Translations under genes and position numbers: made by a program
Source: an uncultured Bacteroides sp.
Lineage (GTDB): Bacteria; Bacillota; Clostridia; Oscillospirales; Acutalibacteraceae
Assembly: GCA_964535085.1 (NCBI GenBank)
Contig: CAZHSE010000001.1
Coordinates: forward strand, 230,956-294,955
Length of the DNA stretch: 64,000 bases
Direction of reading: 5' to 3'
Notes under the pieces: model-generated
Database searches by the model: none
Seen by the model: only the letters and a program-made list of their open reading frames with translations
What the model was told of the DNA's origin: nothing
Shown here: positions 1,035 to 44,545 of the stretch, in pieces
Position numbering within the stretch: position 1 is the first letter of the stretch
How the letters are laid out: every line of letters starts with the position of its first letter

Positions 1035-1071
1035 TTTTCACAATTCAGCATTTTTCAGGGATATAGTATGT
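1035..1071 (+). promoter_or_regulatory. Putative ECF-sigma promoter, copy C
   Basis: ttttcacaa-N13-agggatatagtat; 29/37 identical to 43282-43318 (minus) and 27/37 to 44509-44545 (minus). Confidence 0.6.
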
Positions 1072-1085
1072 TGAATGTATTTGAA

Positions 1086-1107
1086 AGAGGTGTTTCCGAT
1101 GTTTTAA
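1086..1107 (+). other. SD + Met-Phe-stop mini-ORF in leader
   Basis: AGAGGTG-tttccg-ATG TTT TAA; near-identical copy at 42742-42721 (minus). Confidence 0.5.
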
Positions 1108-1182
1108 AAGTAAAGATTTATATAAAAGCAAAACAGTATAAGATTATTGATTTCAACATAAATATTAAGGAGAAAAATCATT

Positions 1183-2205
1183 ATGAAACTTATAAATAAT
1201 ATTTTAGCCATTTTAATGGGATTAGCTTTGATTTTATCCAGTGGAACAATTACCGCTTTCGCTAATGAAATTAAAAGTAATGATAACAAAATTCTAATTG
1301 AAAATGGTTTTCCAAGTGAACATATAGATGTTTTATCGACGAATCAAAAACAAGAATTGGTTGATGAATTAAAGAATAATCCCACTAATGTTACTATTAC
1401 AACTTCAATTTTAGAAGTAGATAATTTGGTAGAAGTAGAAAATTTTTTGAAATGTACAGATGAAGAACTTGTTAATATGGGTATGGATTTAGATAGTGTA
1501 ATTGAAACAAGGAAAGAATTAAATGGTCTAAATAAAAAGTCACCTGAACAAATATCAAAAGAAAAAAATGTTAGTTTAGCAGAAGCAACATATTATAAAA
1601 AAGCAATAGAAAAAGGGCTTTCAGGCGAGATAAATCAAACATATAAAGAAACTACAAATCCAGTTACTGCATCTGGTTCAATTTCTTCGTCGAAATTATC
1701 ATATTCTCAAACTGTGACACGCAAGTCTCCAGAGCTTCCAAATTATTCTGTATTTCTTTCATATACTTGGGCTTCACCTTTTACTGTAATTGGATTTAAT
1801 GATGAAATTGTTGTTGCATGGGGAGGCGGACTTAACACAAAAAACGAATCTGGATCATCAAGATATTATAACTGTGGAACAAGCTGGGGCTCATATTATG
1901 AAACTAATGATATGACTAAAAAGTACACCCCAAATGCTGGATTAGAATTTATATTTCCACAATCGGTAACAACACCTCAAACCATATCAAATGGTTCACG
2001 AGCACTTGCAAAAACGGGTGGTGCTAGTTTTATATTGTATCAAACTAAAAAGGAAGGTAAAGAAACTAAGATAATATCACATTATTGTCATCGTGTAATA
2101 AAAGTTGGCACTTCAATTGGAATAAGTACTAGTCCAAGCTTATCAATAAATATCGGAAGTGCTTGGGATAAAACCAACCAAGCTAGTAATAACATAGAAT
2201 ACTAA
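1183..2205 (+). CDS. Secreted hypothetical protein (340 aa)
   Basis: AAGGAG SD; Sec-type signal peptide ending AFA; Ser/Thr/Gly-rich, probably beta-rich C-terminal half; AT-rich. Confidence 0.75.
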   Translation: MKLINNILAILMGLALILSSGTITAFANEIKSNDNKILIENGFPSEHIDVLSTNQKQELVDELKNNPTNVTITTSILEVDNLVEVENFLKCTDEELVNMGMDLDSVIETRKELNGLNKKSPEQISKEKNVSLAEATYYKKAIEKGLSGEINQTYKETTNPVTASGSISSSKLSYSQTVTRKSPELPNYSVFLSYTWASPFTVIGFNDEIVVAWGGGLNTKNESGSSRYYNCGTSWGSYYETNDMTKKYTPNAGLEFIFPQSVTTPQTISNGSRALAKTGGASFILYQTKKEGKETKIISHYCHRVIKVGTSIGISTSPSLSINIGSAWDKTNQASNNIEY

Positions 2206-2237
2206 TGTTTATTATTATATAGTGATATGCATAAAAT

Positions 2238-3296
2238 ATGAAAAAAAAATATTTAGTATTAATTATTTTAATAATTTCTTTATTAGCCCCATCACTTTTT
2301 TTTATAAATAATAAAAATGATAAAGAAAAAGAACTATATCAAGATGATTGGGCAATATATAATTATGGTCAAAAAATTGAAAGCAATAGTGGGAAAGCAG
2401 GTATAGATATAAATATACGACCAATACTCAGTAATATTAGTAGCAAAGATAATGATAATTCTGTTATTGTTGCAGTAGTTGATACAGGTATTGATTTATC
2501 AAATGACATTATTAATCAAAATTTATTTATAAATATTAATGATAAAATTAATAATTGTGATGATGATGAAAATGGATTTATTGATGATTATTATGGTTGG
2601 AATTTTTTTGAAAATAATAACATTATATACGATGATGCAATATATGACTATCATGGAACATATATCGCGGCAACTATATTAAAAATTTCTCCTCATTCAA
2701 GAATTTTACCTGTAAAATTCTTGAATTCTACTTATGGCACAATTGAAGATTCCATTTCTGCAATAAAATACGCTATAGGTAGAGGGGCTAAAGTTGTTAA
2801 TTGCAGTTGGAATTTTAACAATGATAATAAAGAACTGTATGAATTGATTAAATCTCATCCTGAAATACTTTTTATTTGTTCAGCTGGAAATTCAAACATT
2901 GATTTAGACAAAGGTGATCTCTTTCCTTGCAGTTACAATTTAAATAACATAATCACTGTTATGGCTATAGACAGCAAAGGTTTACCATATGATTCAAGCG
3001 GTTATGGTAAAGATAGTGTTGATATTGCAGCACCTGGTGTTAATGTTAAAGTAATTTTACCTGATAACGAAGAAACATTGATAAGTGGTACCTCTGTTGC
3101 AAGTGCATATGTTTCCGGTGTTGCTTCACTCATGCTTTCCGAAAACTCTAATCTAAAGCCTGAAAATATAAAAGAAATTTTAATTAAAAATTCAAATAAA
3201 ATAGCAGGATTGAAAGCAAAGTGCAGATCAGAAGGCATTATTGATGTCAGTGCGAGCTATTTTGCCGCAAAGGAGTATGAGGAGGATAAAAAATGA
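2238..3296 (+). CDS. S8 subtilisin-like serine peptidase, N-terminally anchored or secreted
   Basis: Triad motifs VAVVDTG, YHGTYIA, SGTSVAS; oxyanion SAGN; N-terminal hydrophobic helix. Confidence 0.9.
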   Translation: MKKKYLVLIILIISLLAPSLFFINNKNDKEKELYQDDWAIYNYGQKIESNSGKAGIDINIRPILSNISSKDNDNSVIVAVVDTGIDLSNDIINQNLFININDKINNCDDDENGFIDDYYGWNFFENNNIIYDDAIYDYHGTYIAATILKISPHSRILPVKFLNSTYGTIEDSISAIKYAIGRGAKVVNCSWNFNNDNKELYELIKSHPEILFICSAGNSNIDLDKGDLFPCSYNLNNIITVMAIDSKGLPYDSSGYGKDSVDIAAPGVNVKVILPDNEETLISGTSVASAYVSGVASLMLSENSNLKPENIKEILIKNSNKIAGLKAKCRSEGIIDVSASYFAAKEYEEDKK

Positions 3297-3796
3297 TTAT
3301 AGATATTATACTTATTACATCTTCATTATTATTTTTTGCTGACTTCTTTTTGCTGAATTATCTCTGGTTAAATTTCTGCGATAAACTGTATGATATATTT
3401 TACGTTTTACTGCTTATATTACTTATTCTTACTGCTGTTTTCGGTATTATAAAAATCTTTGTTGTTATGTTTAAATCCAAAAGCAAAATAAGTATAAGAA
3501 TTATTTCGATTGGATTAATAATCGCTTTGTTTGTTGGAGCGGGAACTACGCTGTCTTCAATGACAAAATCAAAATATGTGGGAAGTTTTACGTATATCAG
3601 TGAAAAAGAGACTGATGAAAACGATAATTGTTTTTTAGTGATAATGGATTCGGAGCTGAATAAATATATCAGAGTTAAATGCGATAAAGATACTTATAAT
3701 AAAATTGAAACAGGAGAAAACAATCTTTATACCGTCGAATACAGAATCGGCTGTTTAAACAATGATTACGGAGTTTTGGAAAATATATCAAAATAA
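3293..3796 (+). CDS. Membrane protein (about 3 TM helices plus C-terminal soluble domain)
   Basis: ATGA overlap with peptidase stop; hydrophobic N-terminal half. Confidence 0.7.
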   Translation: MIIDIILITSSLLFFADFFLLNYLWLNFCDKLYDIFYVLLLILLILTAVFGIIKIFVVMFKSKSKISIRIISIGLIIALFVGAGTTLSSMTKSKYVGSFTYISEKETDENDNCFLVIMDSELNKYIRVKCDKDTYNKIETGENNLYTVEYRIGCLNNDYGVLENISK

Positions 3797-3811
3797 GTAC
3801 TTGATTAACTG

Positions 3812-3854
3812 AAATACACATTCTCGCTTTTATTATCGGGAATGTGTATTTTTT
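3812..3854 (+). terminator. Intrinsic terminator closing cassette 1
   Basis: aaatacacattctcg / cgggaatgtgtattt stem plus T run. Confidence 0.75.
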
Positions 3855-3930
3855 GTTTACAATTTATACACTTGTATATTGAAGAGTTTTATGTTAAAAT
3901 ATTTTATACAAACTGATAAAATTATACAAA

Positions 3931-4539
3931 GTGAGAAAAAATATGCCGAAGAATAACAAACTCGGTTGCTCATACGCAACTCAGCAAAAACTTGCCAAAT
4001 CTCTTAAAGAGTTAATGGAAAATGAGTCTTTTGAAAAACTTTCAGTTTCAGATATAACTTCCAACTGCAATTTGCACAGGCAAACTTTTTATTATCATTT
4101 TGAAGATAAATATGAACTTCTTGACTGGATAGTTTATGAAGAGCTGATTTTGCCGATTATAACTGAATTTAAAATTGACAATATTTATGAGAAGTTTTAT
4201 AATATTTTTGAAACTATGAGCAGAGAAAGAAAGTTTTATCAGAATTCTCTGAAGATTAATACGGAAGAGCTTTCAAGGTATATAAGCAAAATTGCTCATG
4301 AATATGTAAGACCTCTTGTAAAAAGCGTTAAAGCAGAAAATTTAATTAAGTTTTCCGATGAAAATAATGACAGCATTTTTTCGGAATTTTTATGCTATGG
4401 CATTTCGGGAGTAATAATTTCCTGGGTGCAAAGAGGAATGAAAGAGTCGCCGCAGGAAATGACAATGTGCATTAAAAGTGTTATTTCAGGCGTGAAAATC
4501 TTAATTACACAGAGAAAAAGTTTTGAGGATAGAATATGA
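3931..4539 (+). CDS. TetR/AcrR family transcriptional regulator (DhaS-like)
   Basis: N-terminal HTH (FEKLSVSDITSNCNLHRQTFYYHFEDKYELL). Confidence 0.9.
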   Translation: MRKNMPKNNKLGCSYATQQKLAKSLKELMENESFEKLSVSDITSNCNLHRQTFYYHFEDKYELLDWIVYEELILPIITEFKIDNIYEKFYNIFETMSRERKFYQNSLKINTEELSRYISKIAHEYVRPLVKSVKAENLIKFSDENNDSIFSEFLCYGISGVIISWVQRGMKESPQEMTMCIKSVISGVKILITQRKSFEDRI

Positions 4540-5951
4540 AAAAAAGAATTTTAATCAGAGCAAGTGTCTCTCCGTTTGAAGTCCACAAGCCCATTGATGT
4601 TATCTGCCAGAAGGTTATCGGAAATAATACAGGTAATCTTCTGTTTGCCTACAGTATGACAAGAACTCTTTATACCGAAGATACGGAAATTGATTTTCTT
4701 GCCGATAAAGAGGTCGCTCACGGTAAAGTAAAGGCAGAATATATTAATGAAAATTACGATTATCTTGTTCTGCCTATGGCAAACTCATTCAGAAAGCAGT
4801 TTATGCAGTGTATGGGTATGTGGACAAGTATAATTGAAAAATTGACTATTCCCGTTGTCATAACGGGTATCGGTATTCAGATGCCTTATGAGCCAGATGT
4901 TACCGAAAAACATGTTTATGACGAATGTGCCAAAAAGTTTATTACGGCAGTTCTTAATCATTCTGCATCTGTAGGTGTAAGAGGTACTATCACCGAGAGT
5001 TATCTTAAACATTTAGGCTTCGGAGGTAACGATATTGATGTTACAGGCTGTCCTTCCTTTGCAATGCTTGGTCCGGGACTTACCGTCAGAGAGAAAAAGC
5101 CGCTTACAGCCGAATCATCTGTCTGCGTAACAGGCTCTGTATCAAATCCCGTAAACTTTAAAGAATTTATGATAAGAAACAGGGAAGTACTGCCGAATTA
5201 TTATTTTATGCCTCAGTTTGTTGATGATTTAAGACTGATGTATCTCGGCATACCTCTTCCTATTACAAAGGATTCTCAGGTGCTTTATCCTCATTTAATC
5301 AATGATGAGGTCTTTGTAAATGACAAGGCGCGTTTCTTTATAAATTTCCCCAGTATTCTTGAATTTAATAAAGATATTGATTTTAACTACGGAACAAGAA
5401 TCCACGGAGCAGTAGGCGGCATTCTTGCTGGCGTGCCCAGCTTTTTGTTCCCGACAGATGCAAGAATCAGAGAGCTTGCGGAATATCATAATGTTCCTAA
5501 TATGCCTGCAAGTGCAGTTGATGAAGATACAAATATCTTTGATATTTATGAAAAGACGGATTTCTCTCAGGTTAATAACGGTCACGAGGAACGATTCTGG
5601 CATTTTGTTGATTTTCTTAATAACAACGGACTGCCGCATATTTATCAGGATAAAACCAGAACAACTGTTCCTTTTGATGAAAAAATCAGGAATATTGAAT
5701 TTGAAGGACCTATCCATTCTCTTACAACCTGTTCCAAGGAAGAAATGATTGAACGTATCGCTTTCGGAAATGGACTTCTCATGAAAGAGCAGAAAGCCAC
5801 CTGTGACATGCATGAAGAAGAAGCTAAAAAAATGAAGGCCGATATTAAAGCATTAAAGGTTAAGGAAAAGAAGCTTAACTGGTATGAGCGTTCATCTTCT
5901 GCAAGGATTGCCGCCTCAAGAGTAAAGCATAAAATAATTAAGGACAAATAA
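4536..5951 (+). CDS. Polysaccharide pyruvyl transferase family protein
   Basis: GNNTGNLLF, VGVRG, GCPS and GTRIHG motifs; ATGA overlap with TetR. Confidence 0.8.
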   Translation: MKKRILIRASVSPFEVHKPIDVICQKVIGNNTGNLLFAYSMTRTLYTEDTEIDFLADKEVAHGKVKAEYINENYDYLVLPMANSFRKQFMQCMGMWTSIIEKLTIPVVITGIGIQMPYEPDVTEKHVYDECAKKFITAVLNHSASVGVRGTITESYLKHLGFGGNDIDVTGCPSFAMLGPGLTVREKKPLTAESSVCVTGSVSNPVNFKEFMIRNREVLPNYYFMPQFVDDLRLMYLGIPLPITKDSQVLYPHLINDEVFVNDKARFFINFPSILEFNKDIDFNYGTRIHGAVGGILAGVPSFLFPTDARIRELAEYHNVPNMPASAVDEDTNIFDIYEKTDFSQVNNGHEERFWHFVDFLNNNGLPHIYQDKTRTTVPFDEKIRNIEFEGPIHSLTTCSKEEMIERIAFGNGLLMKEQKATCDMHEEEAKKMKADIKALKVKEKKLNWYERSSSARIAASRVKHKIIKDK

Positions 5952-5958
5952 ATATATG

Positions 5959-5999
5959 AAAAACAGGTGTTGTTCGTAATGAACAGCACCTGCTTTTTT
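5959..5999. terminator. Bidirectional terminator between convergent genes
   Basis: aaaaacaggtgttgttc-gtaat-gaacagcacctgcttttt. Confidence 0.75.
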
Positions 6000-7401
6000 A
6001 TTTCGTATTCTTTTGATTTTTTATGGGTTTTTGGTGAACTACATTTTCAATTTCACGTTCTGCCGCTTCAATTAGGCTTTGGGTGTCGTGAATTACCGTT
6101 TTATCATAGCAGGCGCTGATTGCCTGTGTGAGACCTAAAAGTATGAAGAGAAGAATAATCTGCTTCGGTGAATTAAAGATATAATCTGTCAGACCGAAGA
6201 TAAGATACAGCAGCATTGATGTAAATACGCAGAAAACCAAAGTGAATTTCTTACCGTTATTTGCGTTAATTTCAAGGAGCTTTCCAAATGCAGATATCAG
6301 CACGATAAACAGAATGACAACTCCGATAATTCCAAGCTCCATCCAGGTTTCTATAACAAAGTTATGACCGTGAGGTTTGTCAAGATTATACTGGCTTATC
6401 AGGACAAGTCCAGTTGATTCACAGCCAAAACCCAGCCCGGCAATAAATGTGTTTACGTGAGTCGTTATGTAGTCGATAAGACTGCCCCAAATCTGAAAAT
6501 GCGCTGCCGAAGATTTTTTCGCTTCTTCGCCTCCGCCTCTGACTTTAAATATAATTCCGTACCTCGTAAGCAAAGACGGAATTATAACGCATACGGTTGG
6601 TATGAATATCTGCAAAAGAGGTTTCCAGTACTGTTTAATAAGAATAACAAACATAAACAGCCAGCCTGCTATAGCTATAACACAGCCTGCACGTGTGAGT
6701 GTTGCACTGATTCCTCCGCTGATTAACACATTTGCCAAAAAGTACAGTATCTTGTGTTTTTTGCCTTTTGTGTTAAGAAAAAGGTAAATTGATATCGGAT
6801 AAACAATCAGTAAATATGTTGCAAGCAGATTCGGATTTGAAAAGAAACCGCTTGCTCTTGAATCCCACCACAATGTTGTATCAATATCAAAAGGAAGCCT
6901 GCTGTAAACAAACTTGTCGAAAGGTTTATAAAAAGGTGTTACAAAAACCTGAGACTTTTTGATATAGCCATATCTGTAAAGTGTATATGAACATATCTGA
7001 AGTATTGCAACAATTCCGTTAAAAGAGCCGGAGGCAGTCATTGTAGCAAGAATTCTGTCAATTTTTTTTCTCGTTCTGCACAGGTTATAAATCATAACCT
7101 CGACTAAAAACATTCCCCACCACAGCATAGCCGTTGCAAATGTTGTAAATTTTGTGTCGGACCATAATGTGCTTAAAACCGAAAAAGCCATAAAGACCAT
7201 CATCAATTTTCCGATAGTGCCGACCTTTGCTTTTTTACCTTCTCTTGTCCACTGACGTTTAAAAACAATGAATCCTATAAAAAGAATAAAAGGACTGACA
7301 TACTCCGGAAGTATAGGGAAAAGAAAAATAATTGCCAAGAGCCAGTAACCGCCGGGGTTACTTCGGTATTTTTCTTTAAAGCTCAGTATTGCTTCTTTCA
7401 T
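5998..7401 (-). CDS. O-antigen ligase (Wzy_C) family membrane protein
   Basis: Multi-TM; RASGFFSNPNLLA, TLTRAG, GLGFG and HGHN..IE..MELGIIG motifs. Confidence 0.85.
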   Translation of the reverse strand: MKEAILSFKEKYRSNPGGYWLLAIIFLFPILPEYVSPFILFIGFIVFKRQWTREGKKAKVGTIGKLMMVFMAFSVLSTLWSDTKFTTFATAMLWWGMFLVEVMIYNLCRTRKKIDRILATMTASGSFNGIVAILQICSYTLYRYGYIKKSQVFVTPFYKPFDKFVYSRLPFDIDTTLWWDSRASGFFSNPNLLATYLLIVYPISIYLFLNTKGKKHKILYFLANVLISGGISATLTRAGCVIAIAGWLFMFVILIKQYWKPLLQIFIPTVCVIIPSLLTRYGIIFKVRGGGEEAKKSSAAHFQIWGSLIDYITTHVNTFIAGLGFGCESTGLVLISQYNLDKPHGHNFVIETWMELGIIGVVILFIVLISAFGKLLEINANNGKKFTLVFCVFTSMLLYLIFGLTDYIFNSPKQIILLFILLGLTQAISACYDKTVIHDTQSLIEAAEREIENVVHQKPIKNQKNTK

Positions 7402-7610
7402 AAAAATACTTTAGCGCAGAATGCGCATCCTCCAAATTTGATTTTCAATACTATCTAATATATTTTTATACGTTTATAGAAAATGTAACATATATAATAC
7501 ACCTATCTATCAATTTTTGCAAGTATAATAATTTTTCGGATGATTTGGAGCGAAATGCACAGTTCATAACTGATTAATAGAAAATTTATATTATGCTTTT
7601 AATTATTTGG

Positions 7611-7639
7611 TTGCATTAATTTAAACATTATAGTATAAT
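7611..7639 (+). promoter_or_regulatory. Sigma-A promoter of PPIase 1
   Basis: TTGCAT-17-TATAAT. Confidence 0.65.
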
Positions 7640-7774
7640 TTATTAGTATTTATCTGCTTAGAATGATATAAGTGTTTATTTTGAAGCAGAATATTTATTC
7701 GCTTTACGCCTTGTATTGCTACACCAGGGCGGATTATTTTTATATTTTGTAGCGGAAAGGCAATGTGATTTTGT

Positions 7775-9739: not shown

Positions 9740-9853
9740 GTTTATGCCGAATAACATCGGCAAAAGTAAAATTAGTACTTGTAATATTGATAAAGATAGT
9801 GTAAAATAAAGTTTGTACTATTTTACTATTATGATATTAGGTAGGATGAAAAA

Positions 9854-11674: not shown

Positions 11675-11680
11675 TAATGC

Positions 11681-14890: not shown

Positions 14891-14967
14891 GGGCCATTAG
14901 CTCAGTTGGTCAGAGCCACCGGCTCATAACCGGTCGGTCCGGGGTTCGAGTCCCTGATGGCCCACCA
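14891..14967 (+). tRNA. tRNA-Ile2 (CAT, lysidine type)
   Basis: Cloverleaf with encoded CCA; CAT anticodon; body resembles Ile2 rather than elongator or initiator Met. Confidence 0.85.
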
Positions 14968-14975
14968 TATATTAT

Positions 14976-15052
14976 AGGGGTATAGTGTTCAACGGTTAGC
15001 ACGATGGTCTCCAAAACCACAAGTCAGGGTTCGAATCCTTGTACCCCTGCCA
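14976..15052 (+). tRNA. tRNA-Trp (CCA)
   Basis: AGGGGTA/TACCCCT acceptor stem; CTCCAAA loop; TTCGAAT T-loop; encoded CCA. Confidence 0.92.
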
Positions 15053-34249: not shown

Positions 34250-34286
34250 AACTGAGTAAGTTATTTTTTGAAAGGGGTACAGTTTT

Positions 34287-35213: not shown

Positions 35214-35223
35214 TAAACTCTTT

Positions 35224-35255
35224 GAGAAGCGATTTTTTAATCGCTTCTCTTTTTT
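35224..35255 (+). terminator. Intrinsic terminator
   Basis: gagaagcgatt-tttt-aatcgcttctc plus T run. Confidence 0.85.
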
Positions 35256-35304
35256 CTTGACCTGATGCTTGTGTTTTGATATAATGATTATTAGGTGATG
35301 AATA

Positions 35305-35892
35305 ATGGATAATAATACTGACATTGTTTCAAATAGAATTAGTAAAAAGAATAAATTGAGTAAAAATACTAAGGCAGTAATAATAATTTTAACCGTTGTT
35401 GCCGTAGTTGGAGTAATTATTGCAGTTTGTGCAGCTAATAAAACGGCACTTACTTCAGAGCTTACATATGCATTTATGCCGAAAGTTATTGACACAAGCG
35501 ATTATGATTCTAACTTGGATTTAGTTTTATATGTTGAAAAGAACAAGGATTTTGATGCCAAAAAAGATGCGAAAGAACCTTTGAAGGCATTCAAATATTA
35601 CTATTATGATGACAACGAAGAAAAGGTTTCTCTCAATTATGATGACGTGGTTTTCGAGGGTACGGATAATGAAATGATGGCCTGTGCCCAGTTTTATTAT
35701 GAAGCCGCCGAAGGCCTGAGCAGTTTTCTTAGAGTTGTTAAAATTATTGCAGCGGTGTTGGCGGTATTGCTTGTTATAGGCGGTTTGGTATTGTGGTTTA
35801 TTTTGTGGTCCAAAAAGTACGATAAAGAAAAAGAAGCCTATAATCAAAAGGTTAATCAGTCAGGCAAAAGCAAAAATAATAAGAAGAAATAA
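35305..35892 (+). CDS. Hypothetical membrane protein (2 TM flanking a soluble loop)
   Basis: Own promoter TTGACC-17-TATAAT; AGGTGA SD; two hydrophobic helices. Confidence 0.75.
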   Translation: MDNNTDIVSNRISKKNKLSKNTKAVIIILTVVAVVGVIIAVCAANKTALTSELTYAFMPKVIDTSDYDSNLDLVLYVEKNKDFDAKKDAKEPLKAFKYYYYDDNEEKVSLNYDDVVFEGTDNEMMACAQFYYEAAEGLSSFLRVVKIIAAVLAVLLVIGGLVLWFILWSKKYDKEKEAYNQKVNQSGKSKNNKKK

Positions 35893-35970
35893 CAGTCGAG
35901 AGCAGGCTTTTTGCTTGCTCTTAACTTTACTTTTAAATAATACTTAAACATTTTACAAGAGGTAAATTTT

Positions 35971-38043: not shown

Positions 38044-38058
38044 TTTTGAGAGGTTTTT

Positions 38059-39018
38059 ATGTTTTCGCCCAGAGAGAGCTTAAGAAAAAGATTAGATGAT
38101 TTAAATGAAAAAATCAGCGACAGTCTTGATTTTGATTTCAGTGCTGTAAGCAGAAATATCAATACTCTTGATGAATTTAACAATGAGATTTATTATAAGT
38201 TTTTAAGCGGAAGAAAGATTTATTTCAGGGGAGAAAGGACGAACAGCCGTTCGAGGCATCTTCTTCCCACAATGCTCAGAAATTCCGATATTCTTTTTTC
38301 AAATAACGACCTGGGAATTGTACACATTGATGCTGAATATATTTTCAGATTCTATTCTTCACTTGGCAGTTTTGTTGATGTGTTTCATAATACAATGGGC
38401 ATGGCTGACAGTGAACATCTTTATGATATCTGCGCTTTTGCGCAGCATTACTGCCATTTTTCGCCGCTTATTGATTTTTCAAAAAGTATATATCCTGCGC
38501 TTTCATTTGCTCTTAAAGACAGAAAAGAATATGACGAAGATATAGTTTTATATGTAGTTGAGCTCAAGGACGATAAGGATTATACTACCGATATAAACGT
38601 CGCTAATAGGTGGCTCAGTGAACTTGACGTTTATGCAAGCTGTTTTGATGAAGAAAATATAAGGACTGCCGTTAGAGAAATGCTCGAAAGCAGAAAAGTA
38701 CCTCAGGGTGATGAATTTAAAATTCACCTTGACCGTATGAGCTCAAGACCTGTTCCTACTGCAAAGCTCATTGATGTTCCGACAAATACACGTATGCGTT
38801 TTCAGCAGGGTGTCTTTCTGATGCTCAATAATTTTCAGCTTTTTAATGTCTCGTATTTTACTAAAAATATCCGTGACCATTTTTATATTACCAAGTATGT
38901 AATCAGCAAGGATATTTGTATCTCACTTCTTGATTTAATTGAGAAAGAAGCCCCGTGGTATTCTTATAAATATTTGACAGACGTTGAATCTGCATTTAAA
39001 ATAGCTATTGAAAGTTAA
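38059..39018 (+). CDS. FRG domain-containing protein
   Basis: YFRGE, AQHY...PLIDFS...ALSFA and RMRFQQGVF motifs. Confidence 0.8.
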   Translation: MFSPRESLRKRLDDLNEKISDSLDFDFSAVSRNINTLDEFNNEIYYKFLSGRKIYFRGERTNSRSRHLLPTMLRNSDILFSNNDLGIVHIDAEYIFRFYSSLGSFVDVFHNTMGMADSEHLYDICAFAQHYCHFSPLIDFSKSIYPALSFALKDRKEYDEDIVLYVVELKDDKDYTTDINVANRWLSELDVYASCFDEENIRTAVREMLESRKVPQGDEFKIHLDRMSSRPVPTAKLIDVPTNTRMRFQQGVFLMLNNFQLFNVSYFTKNIRDHFYITKYVISKDICISLLDLIEKEAPWYSYKYLTDVESAFKIAIES

Positions 39019-39021
39019 TAT

Positions 39022-39064
39022 AAAAAAGGCGTTGATCTTACAGAATAAGACCGATGCCTTTTTT
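39022..39064. terminator. Bidirectional terminator at left edge of cassette 2
   Basis: aaaaaaggcgttgatctta-cagaa-taagaccgatgcctttttt. Confidence 0.7.
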
Positions 39065-39188
39065 CGTTTTAAAATGCTTTTTTATTTAAAGTGTTTTGAT
39101 ATGCTTCATAGTAATTTCTCTTATCTAAAAATAAAGTAAACCTTATAAGGACGAAAACGGCGTTACAAGATATGCTGCTTATTAAACA

Positions 39189-39839
39189 CTATTGCAGATG
39201 ATTTTCTGTTTGTGAGATTATCTTCCCTTCAGAAATTTCAATAATTTCATCGCAGAGTAGAGAAAGATCCTCCTTGTTATGACTGGCGATTATAATAAGA
39301 GTGCCGTTATCTTTTGCATTAAGCAAAAGCTTGTGCACATCGGCAATGGTTTTTTCATCCAATGCATTTGTCGGTTCATCTAAAAGCATAAGCTTCGGAT
39401 TTTCCATTATTGCCTGCGCAATATTCAGCTTTTGTTTCATTCCGAGAGAATATGTTTTTACTTTCTTTTTGTCATTTGGATCAAGCCCGACAGAAATCAA
39501 AGTCTGCTTTATATCAGAGTCGTCTGTTTTTTTATTGATTTTTGCAAGCATTTTTAAATTATCAAAACCGCTGTATTCGGAAAGTAATGTCATATTCTCT
39601 ATTATTATTCCGACGCTTTCCGGAAATTCAATATCTTTTCCGACTGTTTTAGAGTCTATACAAACCTCTCCGTCTGTCGGCAAAATCAAGCCGCATATTG
39701 CTCTGAGAAGCATTGTTTTACCACTGCCGTTTCTTCCGTGAAGACCGTATATTTTCCCACTTTCAAATTCTAAATTTATATTATCAAGTATTCTCTTTTT
39801 TTTGATTTCTTTGCAATATGATTTTACTTCTATTTTCAT
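39189..39839 (-). CDS. ABC transporter ATP-binding protein
   Basis: GRNGSGKT, YSLGMKQK and LLDEPTN motifs. Confidence 0.92.
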   Translation of the reverse strand: MKIEVKSYCKEIKKKRILDNINLEFESGKIYGLHGRNGSGKTMLLRAICGLILPTDGEVCIDSKTVGKDIEFPESVGIIIENMTLLSEYSGFDNLKMLAKINKKTDDSDIKQTLISVGLDPNDKKKVKTYSLGMKQKLNIAQAIMENPKLMLLDEPTNALDEKTIADVHKLLLNAKDNGTLIIIASHNKEDLSLLCDEIIEISEGKIISQTENHLQ

Positions 39840-39842
39840 TTT

Positions 39843-40556
39843 TTACTCCTTTTGTAATATATCTTTTTTATGTATAAATACGAATGATAGAATAATCAGT
39901 ATTATATCTATCAAAAAAATAACAATTAACGGAATAAATATGTTTTTGCTTATTATTTCAGTTCTTGTGAAGCTTAAATAATTAATGAGATTAAATTTCA
40001 AAAAGTACATCATCAATTTTGAATCAGCTGTACCGTCAAGGTATTTTGCATATGCAAAGCTGCCTAGTATATTAAAAACAATATAGGATAAAGAAATTAT
40101 CAGAAAAGCAAAATTTTTTGTTAAATGCAACTCAATATTAAATTGAAACAGCATTAAACAGAATGACACAATAATTCCGTAAAGCAAATATATATATGTT
40201 TTTTTAAAATCAACGCTGCTGTAAAATATAAAATTAAAAAGAGATATAATTGCTGTTTGGACACTGTTGTACAGTATCGTTATTACAGCTGTTTTAATGA
40301 TTTCAATTTTCATTGCAGCACTTCTGGATTTTAAACGGGTTAACCTTACAATATTTTCATTATTATATAGGCAGCCGCTTCGTGCGTTTGTTAACAGTGA
40401 CAGAGTTACAAAGCTGACGGAAGAGAAAATAAGCGAGAGTATTTCAAAATTCATCGGCATACCGTAATATTGCTCGTCTAAACCGCTGTGAGCCTGCATT
40501 ACAGAGCATAAAAAAACAATGAATGCAGCAATAACAGATAATATCTTATTTTTCAT
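39843..40556 (-). CDS. Multi-pass membrane protein (putative ABC permease or immunity subunit)
   Basis: About 6 hydrophobic segments; coupled to neighbours; AT-rich. Confidence 0.7.
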   Translation of the reverse strand: MKNKILSVIAAFIVFLCSVMQAHSGLDEQYYGMPMNFEILSLIFSSVSFVTLSLLTNARSGCLYNNENIVRLTRLKSRSAAMKIEIIKTAVITILYNSVQTAIISLFNFIFYSSVDFKKTYIYLLYGIIVSFCLMLFQFNIELHLTKNFAFLIISLSYIVFNILGSFAYAKYLDGTADSKLMMYFLKFNLINYLSFTRTEIISKNIFIPLIVIFLIDIILIILSFVFIHKKDILQKE

Positions 40557-41262
40557 TTGTAATTATATCCTTTTTAATAAACAGGATTTTGGACAGAGTT
40601 ACTGCTATAAGTATTAGAATAACGCTCATTGCAGAGTTTATCAAATACGTGGGTGCATTGAATGATCCCGAATAGAGCCATTCATCCAAAAACATAGTGT
40701 AAAGCGCAGGTGTGATTCTTATATTCCAGTATTCCATTGCGGAAAGAACAACGAACAGCGCTGTCGAAATAATTATATATGTTTTTTTAAAACTGCAAAT
40801 TATTCCAATCAGCATTGTATATGTTCCTAAAATTAAAAAATACAGGAAAAGTATAAACACATATAACAGGGAAGCGATAAAAAAATTATGTTCTTTCATT
40901 AAACCGAAATCAACAAAAAGCAAAGCTAATATTATATTGCTTCCCCAAAATTCGGCAGCAGTAAGTAATGAATCAAGAGTAATGCCTATTATTCTCCTGT
41001 TAAGATATTTTATTTTTCCAAGCCTTGTGAGCCTATATACATCCATATTACCGAATAAAGAATAATGACCGATGATAAAAAACGCAGTGTATACAATTCC
41101 AATTAAAAGTATTGCGTTATTGAATCCAAAGGATGGTGCCATAATGTCACAAAACAGTTCATTATCATTTATTTTTTCGTTAAAGGAAATGTATTGGCCG
41201 TTAAATATAAACCACATAACAATAAAAAAGGCAGTTCTTGATAAATTATATTTAAATTGCAT
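40546..41262 (-). CDS. Multi-pass membrane protein (putative ABC permease subunit)
   Basis: About 6 hydrophobic segments; overlaps both neighbours. Confidence 0.7.
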   Translation of the reverse strand: MQFKYNLSRTAFFIVMWFIFNGQYISFNEKINDNELFCDIMAPSFGFNNAILLIGIVYTAFFIIGHYSLFGNMDVYRLTRLGKIKYLNRRIIGITLDSLLTAAEFWGSNIILALLFVDFGLMKEHNFFIASLLYVFILFLYFLILGTYTMLIGIICSFKKTYIIISTALFVVLSAMEYWNIRITPALYTMFLDEWLYSGSFNAPTYLINSAMSVILILIAVTLSKILFIKKDIITNEK

Positions 41263-42037
41263 CTTTTTTCCTCACAAATTTTATGTATGCTCCTATGAGG
41301 GCTGCAGACATAACGGCAAAAACCTCTAAAAAAGCGATTGTTCCGTAGAAATAATCGTATTCTGTAAACGGCTGAATAATCATAGAAATGTCATATTTTG
41401 TTGAATATAATGCCATCCATACCGCAAACGTTAAAATGGACGCAATCTTATTATTGTTAAATATAAAACAGACGCTTTGACAAAAAATTCCGCAAACGCC
41501 CGCTAATGCAAGCGCGCCGAAGAAATACATAAAATATGCAATATAAGGGTGATTTATTGAATAAGCCAAAAATGGTCCGCTGACATGCCCTGTGAGATGT
41601 GCTTGCGCAATATATTCTAATCCGCCAAAACCGCTTTTGCCGTGGTTTATAATACAGGATAAAAGGAAATCTCCCATAAGCGGAGCAGCTGTAACAGCAA
41701 TGCTGAAAACAAACGAGCACAAAATTTTTTTGTAAAAATATTTTTTTCTGCTCATTTTTACAAGATAAATGTTCAAAGCTCCCGTCTTTCTTTCTATGAC
41801 ATATTTATCGGCATAAAGCAGTATGAGAAGCAGCGGTAAAAGCCAGAATATCATTACAAACGGAATATATATATCTTTTAAATCTGCCAGCAGTGTTGAC
41901 CCCATTGGGTGAATTGAACTGCTTTTTGACATATTAATGTCAGTAATATTTTTTACGATTACTGCAATCCAAAAATAGAGCATAATAAATACTGATTTTT
42001 TGGATTTGATTAATTTGGTAAATTCCTGATTTATCAT
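41252..42037 (-). CDS. Multi-pass membrane protein (ABC-2-like permease, DUF2705-like)
   Basis: Start at ATG 42037 after GAGGT; D..V.ER..G...IYL...SRKKY..KK pattern typical of these permeases. Confidence 0.7.
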   Translation of the reverse strand: MINQEFTKLIKSKKSVFIMLYFWIAVIVKNITDINMSKSSSIHPMGSTLLADLKDIYIPFVMIFWLLPLLLILLYADKYVIERKTGALNIYLVKMSRKKYFYKKILCSFVFSIAVTAAPLMGDFLLSCIINHGKSGFGGLEYIAQAHLTGHVSGPFLAYSINHPYIAYFMYFFGALALAGVCGIFCQSVCFIFNNNKIASILTFAVWMALYSTKYDISMIIQPFTEYDYFYGTIAFLEVFAVMSAALIGAYIKFVRKKDAI

Positions 42038-42050
42038 ATCGACCTCATAA

Positions 42051-42086
42051 TATCTGTACAGATAATTTGATTTTATCTGTACAGAT
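42051..42086. repeat. Two copies of palindrome atctgtacagat, 23 bp apart
   Basis: 42052-42063 (extends to 14 bp, 42051-42064) and 42075-42086. Confidence 0.85.
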
Positions 42087-42120
42087 TTTTGTTTTAATTT
42101 ATAATGTGATTGGTATCGTA

Positions 42121-42621
42121 TTAATATGACTGAGTTTTCCACTCTCCCTGAATACGATAACTTTTGTCTGTTTTATTATTATTTTTTGCAGCAATCCATA
42201 CATTACCCGGGCTGGCGGATTGATATGCGTCAAAGCTTACCCAGCCGGTTCCCTGTGCAACCGGAAACCTTTGAGATCCCCATGTAGTTTCATCAAGAGC
42301 GAGTGCAAATTTCGCTATTGAACCTTTGCCTTCTTCAGACTCGTTCAAACAAACCCTCCATTGATTTGAAGTATTATCTGTAGAACGTCTTCTTTTACTT
42401 TCATTATTATGTCCGGTAACGCAATTTGCTTTAAGATAAAAGTCAAAACTGTAATTTTGCACTGCTGCAGATGACATAATAGGTATTGTAAGCGAAAACA
42501 TTAAAACAAAAGCAATCAGTAATGTTGTCAGTTTTCTTCTATACATGTTTAAAGATTTATTTTTATTCTTCATAGTTATAATTTGTATGATATAGTAGAT
42601 AACTAAATCATACCCTTTCAT
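42121..42621 (-). CDS. Small secreted protein, DUF2712-like
   Basis: Signal peptide; R.R.T....N.W.V.L..SEEGKG, V.QG, KNNN and Y.I.GEW pattern recalled for DUF2712; exact start uncertain. Confidence 0.65.
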   Translation of the reverse strand: MKGYDLVIYYIIQIITMKNKNKSLNMYRRKLTTLLIAFVLMFSLTIPIMSSAAVQNYSFDFYLKANCVTGHNNESKRRRSTDNTSNQWRVCLNESEEGKGSIAKFALALDETTWGSQRFPVAQGTGWVSFDAYQSASPGNVWIAAKNNNKTDKSYRIQGEWKTQSY

Positions 42622-42652
42622 AATATTTGTGCTTGTTTCACATTATTGCAAA

Positions 42653-42699
42653 AACATATCAAAGAGAAATAAGCGCAACGAATGAAGCTTTGATATGTT
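42653..42699 (-). terminator. Hairpin (12-bp perfect stem, 23-nt loop) in the leader of the DUF2712-like gene
   Basis: aacatatcaaag 42653-64 / ctttgatatgtt 42688-99; short U run on minus strand. Confidence 0.5.
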
Positions 42700-42720
42700 A
42701 ATTATGTTAAAAAGAAAAAA

Positions 42721-42742
42721 TCAAAACACCGGAAACACCTCT
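42721..42742 (-). other. SD + (f)Met-Phe-stop mini-ORF in leader, second copy
   Basis: AGAGGTG-tttccg-GTG TTT TGA. Confidence 0.5.
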
Positions 42743-42848
42743 TATCATAAATTTTAATAAAGCTTTATTAAGAGAAAATATTTTCTCATATTTATAGTGT
42801 CATTTTTTTGAGAAATGTGAATATATTTTTTAAATTAGTTAAAAATTT

Positions 42849-43253
42849 TTAATATTTATAAACAGTTTCTACTTCTGAGCCTGCGGTGAAGGTAACTTTT
42901 AATCTGTAGTTACATAAAATATTGATATTCCGTGACTCTGTCATAGCCAAAAGTGTGTCTGTCTTGCTGTCTGTCCATGTTGCAACAGTTTCATAACCTG
43001 TTGACTTTTCCTTTTGCAGTTCCATTTTTATTTTAAGATTTACAGAACTTTTTGATTGAAGAACAGCTGAACAACTTGCCTTTATTCCTGAAATGTTTAA
43101 ACTTACTGAACAGTTAAGAATATTTACATAACAGGGAACTATTTCATCATCATTTTTAACGTCAGCATTTGAAATTAATGTACTGCTGAAAATCATTAGA
43201 AATGATAAAAGGATGGAACAGATTTGCTTTAATCTTATATTTTTCTTTGTCAT
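42849..43253 (-). CDS. Small secreted protein (134 aa)
   Basis: GAGGAGGTG SD; signal peptide; IVPCY and ELQK....Y..V.TW pattern of proteins that accompany clostridial ECF/anti-sigma pairs. Confidence 0.8.
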   Translation of the reverse strand: MTKKNIRLKQICSILLSFLMIFSSTLISNADVKNDDEIVPCYVNILNCSVSLNISGIKASCSAVLQSKSSVNLKIKMELQKEKSTGYETVATWTDSKTDTLLAMTESRNINILCNYRLKVTFTAGSEVETVYKY

Positions 43254-43281
43254 TGTTACACCTCCTCTCTATTAATCTCTC

Positions 43282-43318
43282 ATATACTTAATCCCTAAAA
43301 ATTGCCGTTTTGTGAAAA
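43282..43318 (-). promoter_or_regulatory. Putative ECF-sigma promoter, copy A
   Basis: ttttcacaaaacggcaatttttagggattaagtatat; 30/37 identical to copy B. Confidence 0.6.
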
Positions 43319-43360
43319 AATTTTTTAAAAATTCAAAAATTTGGATTATTCTACAAATAT

Positions 43361-43993
43361 CTACCCGATATTTTGTGCAATATTAACAAGCTCTTTTTTG
43401 CTGATATTTCCGTTTATTATGAAAGTGTATTCTCCGTTGTTAAATATTACTCCATTAATTTCATTGTCTGAAGTATAATAAACAACATTCATACCATTAA
43501 TTTTTATTTCATTGCTGTTGTATTTTTCACTATCAAAATTTATACTTGTATTTACAATATATTTTTCAACATAAAAATATTTATCGGAATTTCTATAATT
43601 TTGGATATATATGTCATTTGAAGCATATTCTTTAACTTTTTCAAATCCTGTTGGAATATAATTCAACTTCAAAAATTTCACATTTTCAGTATCATCTGTA
43701 TCAACAACACTGTATTCCGAATGATTTGAAAACCTTTCAACAATGAATTTCCTGCTTGAAGGAACTGCAAATGCTGTTATCGTCAGTGAAAGCAGAATTG
43801 CGGCTATCAATATGAATTTAACAGTCTTCTTTGATAGCTTGTGCTCATTTTCCTTTAACTCCTTTTTGAAAATTTCTTCAATTTTTTCAGTATGCTTTTT
43901 ACTGAATTTATGCTTTGGTATTTCAGCGGGAAAGGAGTCAATCCATTTTTCGCAGGAGAGGGCACATGCCTCTTCAAAATTACCCATATTCAA
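43361..43993 (-). CDS. Putative anti-sigma factor, DUF4367-type
   Basis: HKFSKKH..KI N-terminus, single TM, extracellular LNYIP.GF / FDSE / I.GNISK.EL..IA; overlaps the sigma stop. Confidence 0.8.
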   Translation of the reverse strand: MNMGNFEEACALSCEKWIDSFPAEIPKHKFSKKHTEKIEEIFKKELKENEHKLSKKTVKFILIAAILLSLTITAFAVPSSRKFIVERFSNHSEYSVVDTDDTENVKFLKLNYIPTGFEKVKEYASNDIYIQNYRNSDKYFYVEKYIVNTSINFDSEKYNSNEIKINGMNVVYYTSDNEINGVIFNNGEYTFIINGNISKKELVNIAQNIG

Positions 43994-44508
43994 TTACCTT
44001 CTTCAAAATATTTTTTCATCTTTTCTTTGGCTAACTGTATTTTCTTGCGAACATAGGAATCTTTAATTTTGTATATTTCCGCTATTTCTCTGCTCTTATA
44101 TCCGTAAATATATTTGAGGTATAAAAAAACTTTGCTTTTCTCATCTAATACTTCATCAAAAGCAGATAATAATTCCACTTTTTCAAAATTTTCAAAATAC
44201 TCTAAATCATTATCATCTTCAAACATAACTGTGCTTATTTTCAAAGATTCATTATACATATCAACAGCAAATCCCGTAACAATAGTTGATAAGAATGATT
44301 TTGTATCTTTTGAATCGATATAACTGATTTGATTAAAATGCTTTGCAATGTAAAGAAAAGTCTCCTGTACACATTCCTCCGCATCATCTGTATTATTTGT
44401 CTTATTAAGAGCTATCCAGTATAACAAATCTTTATAAGTATCGTATAGCTCAATGAATCTGTCTTTTTCCGTCTGGGAGTCAAGCAGATTAAAAAAAAGT
44501 CCTGTCAT
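43990..44508 (-). CDS. ECF RNA polymerase sigma factor
   Basis: Region 2 DAEECVQETFL; region 4 YGYKSREIAEI; 172 aa. Confidence 0.9.
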   Translation of the reverse strand: MTGLFFNLLDSQTEKDRFIELYDTYKDLLYWIALNKTNNTDDAEECVQETFLYIAKHFNQISYIDSKDTKSFLSTIVTGFAVDMYNESLKISTVMFEDDNDLEYFENFEKVELLSAFDEVLDEKSKVFLYLKYIYGYKSREIAEIYKIKDSYVRKKIQLAKEKMKKYFEEGN

Positions 44509-44545
44509 ATATACTATATCCCTAAAAATTTTGTTTTTTTGAAAA
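44509..44545 (-). promoter_or_regulatory. Putative ECF-sigma promoter, copy B (autoregulatory, abuts the start codon)
   Basis: ttttcaaaaaaacaaaatttttagggatatagtatat immediately before ATG 44508. Confidence 0.6.

What the first reader, a model, noticed from the sequence alone, without database searches (positions are those of the whole stretch)
1035..44545. Shared 37-bp promoter motif links two cassettes 40 kb apart: a candidate split ECF-sigma regulon
Seen, in transcription orientation: C 1035-1071(+) ttttcacaattcagcatttttcagggatatagtatgt; A 43318-43282(-) ttttcacaaaacggcaatttttagggattaagtatat; B 44545-44509(-) ttttcaaaaaaacaaaatttttagggatatagtatat. Pairwise identities are A/B 30/37, A/C 29/37 and B/C 27/37, with conserved ends (TTTTCA[C/A]AA; AGGGAT..AGTAT) at fixed spacing and a variable middle. 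A weaker copy D (42823-42787, minus) keeps TTCACA and TATA at the same spacing. B precedes the ECF sigma, A and D precede the two secreted-protein genes beside it, and C precedes the distant secreted protein/subtilase cassette, which has no regulator of its own. Established: ECF sigmas usually autoregulate through bipartite promoters. Inference: this sigma/anti-sigma pair controls both cassettes, forming one system of secreted proteins, protease and ABC/membrane proteins.
Basis: partly seen in the sequence, partly recalled or inferred. Interest (0 to 1): 0.78.

Follow-up and report, generated by a model that had tools for sequence, protein, structure and literature searches.

The report
Sigma-factor promoter shared by two islands
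Three copies of a 37-bp sequence are very probably the promoter read by one alternative sigma factor, so a secreted-protein/protease gene island 40 kb away answers to that factor; this is a well-supported but ordinary kind of bacterial gene switch.

Summary
Copies A, B and C are real and are the only three in the 2.03-Mb genome. Copy D is background. A matrix built only from relatives ranks A, B and C first, second and third of about 4 million positions.

In 80 metagenomic and several genomic loci with a 53-67% identical sigma, the motif sits at two fixed places. One abuts the sigma start codon. The other follows the DUF4367 anti-sigma gene, almost always just after a terminator. It is therefore a stand-alone promoter, not an RNA leader or a Shine-Dalgarno site.

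In the closest relatives, the sigma, anti-sigma, 134-aa protein, 340-aa protein, S8 protease and membrane protein genes form one contiguous block. Here they lie on two AT-rich islands, and same-genus genomes show an empty site for each. Island C has no regulator and carries about 140 bp homologous to the sigma gene's own promoter region.

The split-regulon reading is supported by comparative evidence. In kind, this is a new member of the autoregulated ECF-type sigma class. The likely leaderless sigma mRNA and the function of the secreted proteins remain open.

The parts
44509..44545 (-). Motif copy B: predicted autoregulatory promoter (P2) of the sigma gene. It abuts the ATG at 44508, so a leaderless or near-leaderless mRNA is predicted.
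   Evidence: Sequence. In 77 related sigma-proximal copies the ATG starts 0 (32 copies), -1 (44) or +2 (1) nt from the motif end.
43282..43318 (-). Motif copy A: predicted sigma-dependent promoter of the 134-aa secreted protein gene, and possibly of the genes downstream of it.
   Evidence: It occupies the same position after the anti-sigma gene as in 73 related loci.
1035..1071 (+). Motif copy C: predicted sigma-dependent promoter of the distant sec340/S8/membrane cassette. It is a weaker match: CACAATT instead of CACAAAA, and GTATG instead of GTATA.
   Evidence: It ranks third in the genome with a matrix built only from relatives (23.6 bits, next 10.9).
933..1074 (+). Regulatory region of cassette C, about 140 bp, homologous to the sigma gene's own upstream region (44645-44505, -). 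It includes TTTTTGCAAAA (975-985) and TTGAAA (990-995), which ends 39 nt before the motif.
   Evidence: 111 of 151 identities. The upstream-only score is 81 against shuffles of 39 +/- 6.5.
44585..44605 (-). Candidate housekeeping-type upstream promoter P1 of the sigma gene: TTTTTGCAAAA (44605-44595) plus TTGACA (44590-44585), which ends 39 nt before motif B.
   Evidence: TTGACA lies 34-38 nt upstream of the motif in 40 of 44 unique sigma-proximal upstream regions of relatives. The simple sigma-70 scan did not call it in this window.
43990..44508 (-). ECF-type sigma factor, 172 aa.
   Evidence: Sigma70_r2 and Sigma70_r4_2. TIGR02937 scores 58.9 bits against a cut-off of 42.9. Closest solved structure is B. 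subtilis SigW, E 4.9e-6. It is the only member of its family in the genome.
43361..43993 (-). Single-pass membrane protein with an extracytoplasmic DUF4367 domain, the presumed anti-sigma factor. Its start is tightly coupled to the sigma stop codon.
   Evidence: PF14285, E 2e-15. It always follows the sigma gene in relatives, at 44-57% identity.
42849..43253 (-). sec134: a secreted protein of about 100 aa with an Ig-like beta-sandwich. It is the conserved first target gene of the module.
   Evidence: 53-67% identity with long invariant stretches. AF2 pLDDT 84.6. Only generic Ig-fold matches were found.
39189..42621 (-). Genes for a DUF2712 secreted protein, three membrane proteins and an ABC ATPase. 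They lie downstream of sec134. Sigma control of these genes is not shown.
   Evidence: A similar set follows sec134 in L066 and L041. There is no motif in front of it.
1183..2205 (+). sec340: a secreted protein with an N-terminal helical domain and a C-terminal beta-sandwich. The family is rare.
   Evidence: 26 homologues among 5.8 billion clusters. AF2 pLDDT 80.6. Fold matches are weak, to adhesin Ig-like domains and beta-pore-former folds.
2238..3296 (+). S8 subtilase.
   Evidence: PF00082, E 1e-35. 73% identical to the S8 gene inside the contiguous operons of relatives.
3293..3796 (+). mem167: a membrane protein homologous to the membrane and outer part of a zf-HC2 anti-sigma factor that accompanies this cassette in other lineages.
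   Evidence: 29% identity over 161 aa to L034 residues 87-244, E 3e-15. Context.
555..3849 (.). Island C: a MITE, the promoter region and three genes, at 28-31% G+C. It is absent from same-genus genome G404, where the flanks are 33 bp apart.
39009..44778 (.). Sigma island, at 28-35% G+C. It is absent from same-genus genome G351, where the flanks are about 120 bp apart.
42787..42823 (-).

Best explanation
The 37-bp element, consensus TTrTCACAAAA-N6-TTTT-N-AGGGAT-N3-GTATA(A/T), is the cognate promoter of the ECF-type sigma factor at 43990-44508. TCACAA serves as the -35 box and GGGAT(A/T) as the -10 box.

The DUF4367 membrane protein encoded next to the sigma presumably holds it inactive until an unknown envelope signal arrives. 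Once free, the sigma transcribes three units:
- its own operon from B, starting at or next to the A of the ATG, so the mRNA would be leaderless; this gives positive feedback on top of a basal upstream promoter;
- sec134, and possibly the DUF2712/ABC genes, from A;
- in trans, the sec340/S8 protease/membrane-protein island 40 kb away, from C.

The two islands are the separated halves of a block that is one operon in the closest relatives.

Shown here: uniqueness of the motif, its conservation, its positions, the terminators in front of target copies, synteny, and the empty sites. Inferred: sigma binding, the transcription starts, anti-sigma action and the signal.
For: 1. Only three copies exist in the genome, and they are recovered by an independent matrix.
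2. In 80 metagenomic loci, 144 of 145 hits above 18 bits in 1.31 million positions lie at two places: -36/-37 from the sigma ATG, and +1187 to +1237, just after the anti-sigma gene.
3. Conservation is bipartite. Positions 1-11 and 18-28/32-36 are informative and the spacer between them is free.
4. A hairpin plus T-run lies directly in front of 37 of 39 unique target copies, against 3 of 44 sigma-proximal copies. The target copy must therefore start transcription itself.
5. No RNA structure (z = 0.14) and no Rfam match were found.
6. The motif co-occurs with this sigma family. It is present in 33 of 145 same-genus genomes, mostly as pairs 1.2 kb apart; the reversed-pattern control gives 2 hits. 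In 300 other genomes sampled from the family, only G237 carried the sigma module with it.
7. Contiguous operons occur in L133, L036 and L037 (sigma or sec134, then sec340, S8, mem167), with sec340 61-65% and S8 73% identical to the window's. L057 and L128 keep S8 and mem167 in the operon.
8. There is a single sigma of this family in the genome.
9. Both islands are AT-rich insertions with empty sites in the same genus.
10. Distal or orphan copies occur in other genomes, G237 and G407.
Against: - No transcription start, expression or binding data could be obtained.
- C is a weaker match than A and B (23.6 against 41-46 bits) and has a possible housekeeping-type promoter upstream, so it may be only partly sigma-dependent.
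- The boxes differ from the classical ECF AAC/CGT.
- In many relatives the 3' end of the motif reads TATAAT, so a contribution of the housekeeping sigma cannot be excluded.
- The anti-sigma role of the DUF4367 protein rests on gene position and topology only; no zf-HC2 or other anti-sigma domain was detected.
- The genome is 94% complete, so a fourth copy or a second sigma could lie in the missing part.
Confidence: 0.8

Rival explanations
1. Copy C is an orphan relic. Island C descends from a second sigma module that lost its sigma, anti-sigma and sec134 genes. Its partly decayed motif is no longer, or only weakly, used, and the cassette is expressed from the housekeeping-type promoter upstream.
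For: C carries the sigma-type regulatory region, about 140 bp homologous to B, with TTGAAA 39 nt upstream. Its score with the family matrix is about half that of A and B. Orphan, decayed modules exist, for example G407. Decayed cassettes are also seen in L052, L053, L060 and L041.
Against: C is still the third best site of 4 million, and both informative blocks (TCACAA, TTTT, AGGGAT, AGTAT) are intact. All three cassette genes are intact. The upstream hexamers are poor and are not called by the sigma-70 scan.
Confidence: 0.13
2. The motif is a binding site or promoter for another factor: the housekeeping sigma, or a DNA-binding regulator encoded elsewhere. It travels with the module simply because it is homologous regulatory DNA.
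For: The region is AT-rich with many promoter-like hexamers. Many relatives end the motif in TATAAT.
Against: The three window copies do not meet the sigma-70 consensus scan. Any TATAAT is 26 nt from the only -35-like hexamer. No other regulator is conserved in the loci. The motif is not palindromic. It is restricted to genomes carrying this sigma family.
Confidence: 0.05
3. The motif acts at the RNA level, as a leader element or Shine-Dalgarno region (AGGGA) within a transcript that starts further upstream.
For: For the sigma gene, AGGGA lies 10-11 nt before the ATG. A conserved upstream TTGACA promoter would put the motif in a 5' UTR of about 45 nt.
Against: Target copies sit directly behind terminators and have their own strong SD (GAGAGGAGG or GAAAGGAGG) 20-110 nt further on. 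No fold was found and no Rfam family matched. The conserved TCACAAAA block has no RNA rationale.
Confidence: 0.02

Closest known systems
Autoregulated ECF sigma/anti-sigma operons of Firmicutes, such as B. subtilis SigW-RsiW, SigM-YhdLK, and SigY-YxlCDEFG with its ABC transporter
   Same: A small sigma with only regions 2 and 4, and a membrane protein encoded immediately downstream. The same bipartite promoter stands in front of the sigma gene and of the target genes. There is a possible additional housekeeping promoter upstream, as known for sigM and sigX (my knowledge). ECF autoregulation as a basis for promoter prediction is stated in PMC7826278.
   Different: - The boxes are TCACAA / GGGAT, not AAC / CGT.
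- The partner protein has DUF4367 and no recognisable zf-HC2 anti-sigma domain.
- The sigma start codon abuts the promoter.
- The sigma matches no curated NCBIfam equivalog, and SigW is only a distant hit.
B. subtilis yybN-yybM-yybL-yybK-yybJ cassette (DUF2712 secreted protein, membrane proteins and an ABC ATPase; an AT-rich, Rok-bound region, PMC2978689)
   Same: The genes downstream of sec134 encode a DUF2712 protein (E 3.5e-11), three polytopic membrane proteins and a short ABC ATPase.
   Different: Here the cassette sits behind an ECF-type sigma module. The DUF2705 match is below Pfam's cut-off (19.0 against 22.4 bits). No motif copy precedes the cassette.
Spacer T-tract ECF promoters of B. 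subtilis (PMC5758882)
   Same: A homopolymeric tract inside the spacer is conserved together with the two boxes. Here an A4 tract follows the -35 box and a T4 tract precedes the -10 box.
   Different: The described T-tract is proximal to the -35 box (-26 to -29). Here the T-tract is proximal to the -10 box, and the tract next to the -35 box is A, not T.
sec340/S8 cassettes coupled to a zf-HC2 sigma/anti-sigma pair (L034, L134)
   Same: The same secreted protein and S8 protease are present, at 48-55% identity. The last gene is homologous to mem167.
   Different: Those cassettes carry their own, unrelated sigma, and a full anti-sigma with a zinc-finger domain. They lack the 37-bp motif.

Membership tests
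ECF-type (group 4) sigma-70 family factor | Only regions 2 and 4, with no region 1.1 or 3; about 170-200 aa | tested here: met
   172 aa. PF04542 scores 37.2 bits (cut-off 24) and PF08281 scores 24.8 bits, just below its cut-off of 25.7. TIGR02937 scores 58.9 bits against a cut-off of 42.9.
ECF-type (group 4) sigma-70 family factor | Regulator (anti-sigma) co-encoded next to the sigma gene | tested here: inconclusive
   A single-pass DUF4367 membrane protein always follows the sigma, tightly coupled to it. No known anti-sigma domain was detected and binding was not tested.
ECF-type (group 4) sigma-70 family factor | Autoregulatory promoter shared with target genes | tested here: met
   The conserved motif stands in front of the sigma gene and of target genes in more than 85 loci. 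Sigma dependence itself could not be tested.
ECF-type (group 4) sigma-70 family factor | Classical promoter boxes: AAC in the -35 and CGT in the -10 | tested here: not met
   The consensus is TCACAAAA ... AGGGAT. This feature is typical of ECF groups, not universal.
A named ECF group of the ECF classification 2.0 (PMC7826278) | Assignment by the group HMMs of that classification | not testable with these tools
   The group models and supplementary tables are not held. The main text does not mention DUF4367.
Class I (zf-HC2 / ASD) anti-sigma factors | N-terminal anti-sigma domain with an HxxxCxxC zinc motif | tested here: not met
   The 210-aa protein has no zf-HC2 hit and no match among solved structures. 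The L034 partner protein does have zf-HC2.
YybN-type DUF2712/ABC cassette | DUF2712 secreted protein followed by DUF2705-type membrane proteins and an ABC ATPase | tested here: inconclusive
   DUF2712 is met (44.2 bits against 22). DUF2705 is below its cut-off (19.0 against 22.4). The ATPase is present.
Known cis-regulatory RNA (Rfam) | Match to a covariance model at the gathering score | tested here: not met
   The window has only a T-box and two tRNAs elsewhere. The motif A region does not fold better than shuffles.

The most novel reading that the evidence does not exclude
The module may be more than a stress switch with cargo. The sigma gene would be made from a leaderless mRNA whose promoter is fused to its start codon. 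The invariably linked, highly conserved secreted Ig-like protein sec134 would be a signalling partner, either a ligand or a shield, of the DUF4367 sensor domain. The S8 protease with its anti-sigma-like membrane partner mem167 would feed back on the switch by proteolysis. Together these would form a secreted-protein and protease-driven autoinduction circuit spread by AT-rich islands among gut Clostridia.
Probability: 0.1. Interest if true: 0.65.

Novelty: new member of a known kind. Interest (0 to 1): 0.4.

Why it matters
The finding gives a concrete, testable regulon of three promoters for an uncharacterised sigma/DUF4367 family. That family is common in human-gut Oscillospirales: 33 of 145 genomes in the genus, and more than 80 metagenomic loci. 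It also supplies a non-classical promoter consensus that could be used to annotate the family's targets.

The case shows how a sigma-controlled operon can be broken into separate islands that stay wired in trans. It also links a rare secreted-protein/S8 protease cassette to sigma control in two independent ways. The kind of system, an autoregulated ECF-type sigma with local and distal targets, is well known, so the value lies in annotation and hypotheses rather than in a new principle.

Tried and rejected
- Copy D as a fourth site: rejected.
- AGGGA as a plain SD: rejected for the target copies, which have their own strong SD. A double role for the sigma gene remains possible.
- RNA element: no Rfam hit and no fold.
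- Sigma-70 consensus scans: uninformative in this AT-rich DNA, with counts equal to shuffles.
- Close homologues of sec340 among species-representative genomes: none found by pattern scan; they were found instead through the protein database.
- ECF group assignment from the literature: supplements not held, and DUF4367 is not mentioned.
- Function of sec340 and sec134 from structure: only generic beta-sandwich and Ig-like matches with low TM-scores. The hits to pore-forming toxins, collagen adhesins, CsgC/CsgH and a B. subtilis proteinase inhibitor are too weak to assign a function.
- Motif upstream of more distant sec340 cassettes (L034, L035, L134-L138): absent, so the motif belongs to the sigma family, not to the cassette.
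- The family-wide exact pattern with TCAMAA was too loose; most single hits were chance.


Full report
**Observation**

The three sequences A (43318-43282, minus), B (44545-44509, minus) and C (1035-1071, plus) are present exactly as written. Their pairwise identities are 30, 29 and 27 of 37. The window is C1:230956-294955 of a 2.03-Mb, 38.6% G+C draft genome.

A position weight matrix from the three sites finds only these three in the whole genome, at 46-50 bits; the next best is 17.8. When each site is left out of the matrix, it still ranks third of 4.05 million positions. A matrix built solely from 36 unique sites in other organisms ranks A (46.5), B (41.3) and C (23.6) as the three best sites of the genome; the next is 10.9.

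The fourth copy, D (42823-42787), is background. It has 13-15 of 37 identities and scores -17.6 and -51.9 bits, and 11% of window positions score as well.

**Genes**

B abuts the ATG of a 172-aa sigma factor with regions 2 and 4 only (Pfam; TIGR02937 above its cut-off). The closest solved structure is B. subtilis SigW, at a distance.

Directly downstream lies a 210-aa single-pass membrane protein with a DUF4367 domain. A follows that gene and precedes a 134-aa secreted protein (sec134). Further downstream come a DUF2712 protein, three membrane proteins and an ABC ATPase.

C precedes a 340-aa secreted protein (sec340), an S8 subtilase and a 167-aa membrane protein (mem167). The genome has only one sigma of this family; the other sigmas are at most 27% identical.

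**Conservation of the motif**

Sigma homologues at 53-67% identity were collected from species genomes (L001-L003), from a family genome (G237), from 80 metagenomic contigs and from the same genus.

I scanned the 80 metagenomic loci (1.31 million positions) with the matrix made only from the window's three sites. It gives 145 hits above 18 bits, and 144 of them lie at two places. One is 36-37 nt before the sigma start codon, so the motif ends at the ATG. The other is 1187-1237 nt after it, just behind the DUF4367 gene.

The consensus is TTrTCACAAAA-N6-TTTT-N-AGGGAT-N3-GTATA(A/T). Information is concentrated in positions 1-11, 18-28 and 32-36, and the spacer is free. In the same genus, 33 of 145 genomes carry it, mostly as pairs 1.2 kb apart, while the reversed-pattern control gives 2 hits in all. 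In a sample of 300 other genomes of the family, only G237 carried the sigma module with the motif; the other single hits looked like chance.

**Promoter or something else?**

Of the 39 unique target copies, 37 are directly preceded by a hairpin plus T-run that ends the sigma/anti-sigma transcript. Only 3 of 44 sigma-proximal copies have this (example). Transcription must therefore start anew at the target copy.

Target genes have their own strong SD 20-110 nt further on, so AGGGA is not their ribosome-binding site. The motif A region does not fold better than shuffles (z = 0.14), and nothing in Rfam matches. The three window copies do not satisfy a sigma-70 consensus scan, which is in any case uninformative in this AT-rich DNA.

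The geometry fits a promoter. If the start is placed at the base after the motif, TCACAA lies at about -34 to -29 and GGGAT at -14 to -10. For the sigma gene, the ATG begins 0, -1 or +2 nt from the motif end in 77 of 77 copies. That predicts a leaderless or nearly leaderless mRNA.

Of 44 unique sigma-proximal upstream regions, 40 also carry TTGACA 34-38 nt before the motif. This suggests a second, housekeeping-type promoter for basal expression. It is an inference, and the simple scan does not call it in this window.

**The link between the two cassettes**

sec340 belongs to a rare family, with 26 clusters among 5.8 billion. In its closest relatives the genes are contiguous.
- L036 and L037 read sigma (63%), DUF4367 protein (54%), motif, sec134 (66%), sec340 (65%, frameshifted there), S8 (73%), mem167 (45%).
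- L133 reads sec134, intact sec340 (61%), S8 and mem167.
- L057 and the same-genus genome G310 (L128) keep S8 and mem167 in the operon, with a VanZ-like gene in place of sec340.
- Other relatives (L066, L041) have a secreted protein plus ABC set behind sec134, as in this window.

The core is therefore sigma, anti-sigma, promoter and sec134, followed by exchangeable cargo. This genome holds both cargo types, one of them at a distance.

More remote sec340/S8 cassettes (at most 50% identity) lack the motif. They stand alone or next to a different sigma with a zf-HC2 anti-sigma whose membrane and outer part is homologous to mem167 (29% over 161 aa, E 3e-15).

**Both cassettes are islands**

They have 28-35% G+C, against 36-44% in the flanking genes. 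In same-genus genome G404, the genes flanking window 555-3849 are 33 bp apart. In G351, those flanking about 39009-44778 are about 120 bp apart.

Island C contains no regulator. The TetR gene at 3931 belongs to the conserved flank.

The similarity of C to B extends over about 140 bp, with 111 of 151 identities. The upstream-only score is 81, against 39 +/- 6.5 for shuffles. TTGAAA or TTGACA ends 39 nt before the motif in both. C therefore carries a sigma-type regulatory region, perhaps left over from a second module that lost its sigma genes. Orphan copies of this kind exist elsewhere:
- G407 has a target-type promoter behind a decayed anti-sigma gene end.
- G237 has a third copy, behind a terminator, in front of a 25-codon ORF and a large secreted protein.

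**Most likely mechanism (confidence 0.8)**

The motif is the promoter read by this sigma. The DUF4367 protein presumably sequesters the sigma until an unknown envelope signal arrives. The freed sigma then amplifies its own operon from B. It also switches on sec134 (and possibly the ABC set by read-through) from A, and the sec340/S8/mem167 island in trans from C.

The main reservation concerns C. It is a weaker match (CACAATT, GTATG) and may be partly or wholly driven by the upstream promoter (rival, 0.13). A different reader of the motif (0.05) and an RNA-level role (0.02) are unlikely for the reasons given above.

**What the products do** remains open.
- sec340 models as a helical domain plus a beta-sandwich (pLDDT 80.6), with only weak matches to adhesin Ig-like domains and beta-pore-former folds.
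- sec134 models as an Ig-like sandwich (pLDDT 84.6), with only generic matches.
- sec134 is the best conserved protein of the module, which hints at a role in the switch itself. This is speculation.

**Comparison with known systems and limits**

The system works like the autoregulated ECF sigma/anti-sigma operons of Firmicutes. ECF autoregulation is the accepted basis for predicting their promoters (PMC7826278).

It differs in its boxes, which are not AAC/CGT, and in the DUF4367 partner, which has no recognisable anti-sigma domain. It also differs in the promoter fused to the start codon. The conserved A- and T-tracts in its spacer also sit elsewhere than the -35-proximal T-tract described for B. 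subtilis (PMC5758882).

I could not assign an ECF group.

Transcription starts and sigma dependence are therefore untested.

**Verdict**

- The split-regulon interpretation is supported.
- The system is a new member of a known kind.
- Interest is moderate (0.4).

Noticed in passing
window 1086-1107 (+), 42742-42721 (-); own genome C5:11525: AGAGGTGTTTCCG(A/G)TG is a strong Shine-Dalgarno sequence plus a start codon opening a tiny ORF: MF-stop in the two window copies and MAYLL-stop at C5. It lies in the leaders of three secreted-protein genes. The copy upstream of DUF2712 and the C5 copy share about 62 nt, including the perfect palindromes GAGAAAATATTTTCTC and TTAATAAAGCTTTATTAA. It was not found in any of the other loci fetched. 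It could be a leader mini-ORF or an mRNA-stabilising SD, together with an operator.
   Followed up: partly
window 601-879: The MITE-like insert inside a duplicated terminator, just upstream of cassette C, has 81-85% identical copies in three other genomes of the genus (G321, G313, G336). It is therefore a repeated mobile element.
   Followed up: partly
window 3293-3796; L034 12681-13445; L134 3152-3931: mem167 is homologous to the membrane and outer part of a zf-HC2 anti-sigma factor that follows sec340, S8 and a sigma gene in other lineages. The sec340/S8 cassette is thus tied to sigma control in two unrelated ways.
   Followed up: partly
window 42849-43253 and homologues in L002-L131: sec134 is more conserved than the sigma or the anti-sigma (53-67% identity), with invariant stretches such as IKxELQK and TFTAG.
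   Followed up: partly
G407:C1:125295 (L158); G237:C1:307861 (L033): Orphan or distal motif copies occur behind terminators in other genomes. One sits next to a decayed anti-sigma gene end. The other stands before a 25-codon ORF and a large secreted protein.
   Followed up: partly
G310 (L128 and L131); G400: Some genomes carry two paralogous sigma modules with nearly the same motif. The modules differ mainly at position 3 of the motif (TTA/TTG/TTT before TCACAA), so cross-talk between them is possible.
   Followed up: no
L036 9720-10735; L037 2338-3353: The sec340 homologue is split into 84-aa and 244-aa ORFs by a frameshift in two independent assemblies. L133 has it intact.
   Followed up: no
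L138 460-2542 and 8001-10083: Two inverted copies of sec340, S8 and a 110-aa gene flank a pair of PBP-Tp47-like genes, next to an IS21 helper gene.
   Followed up: no
own genome, e.g. C2:118047, C7:52561, C9:45766: TTTTTGCAAAA lies 4-6 nt upstream of TTGACA-like hexamers at several promoters of this genome. It could be a UP-like element.
   Followed up: no
window 62265-62485; 14891-15046; 38059-39018: A T-box leader (108.9 bits), two tRNA genes, and an FRG-domain protein gene flanking the sigma island.
   Followed up: no
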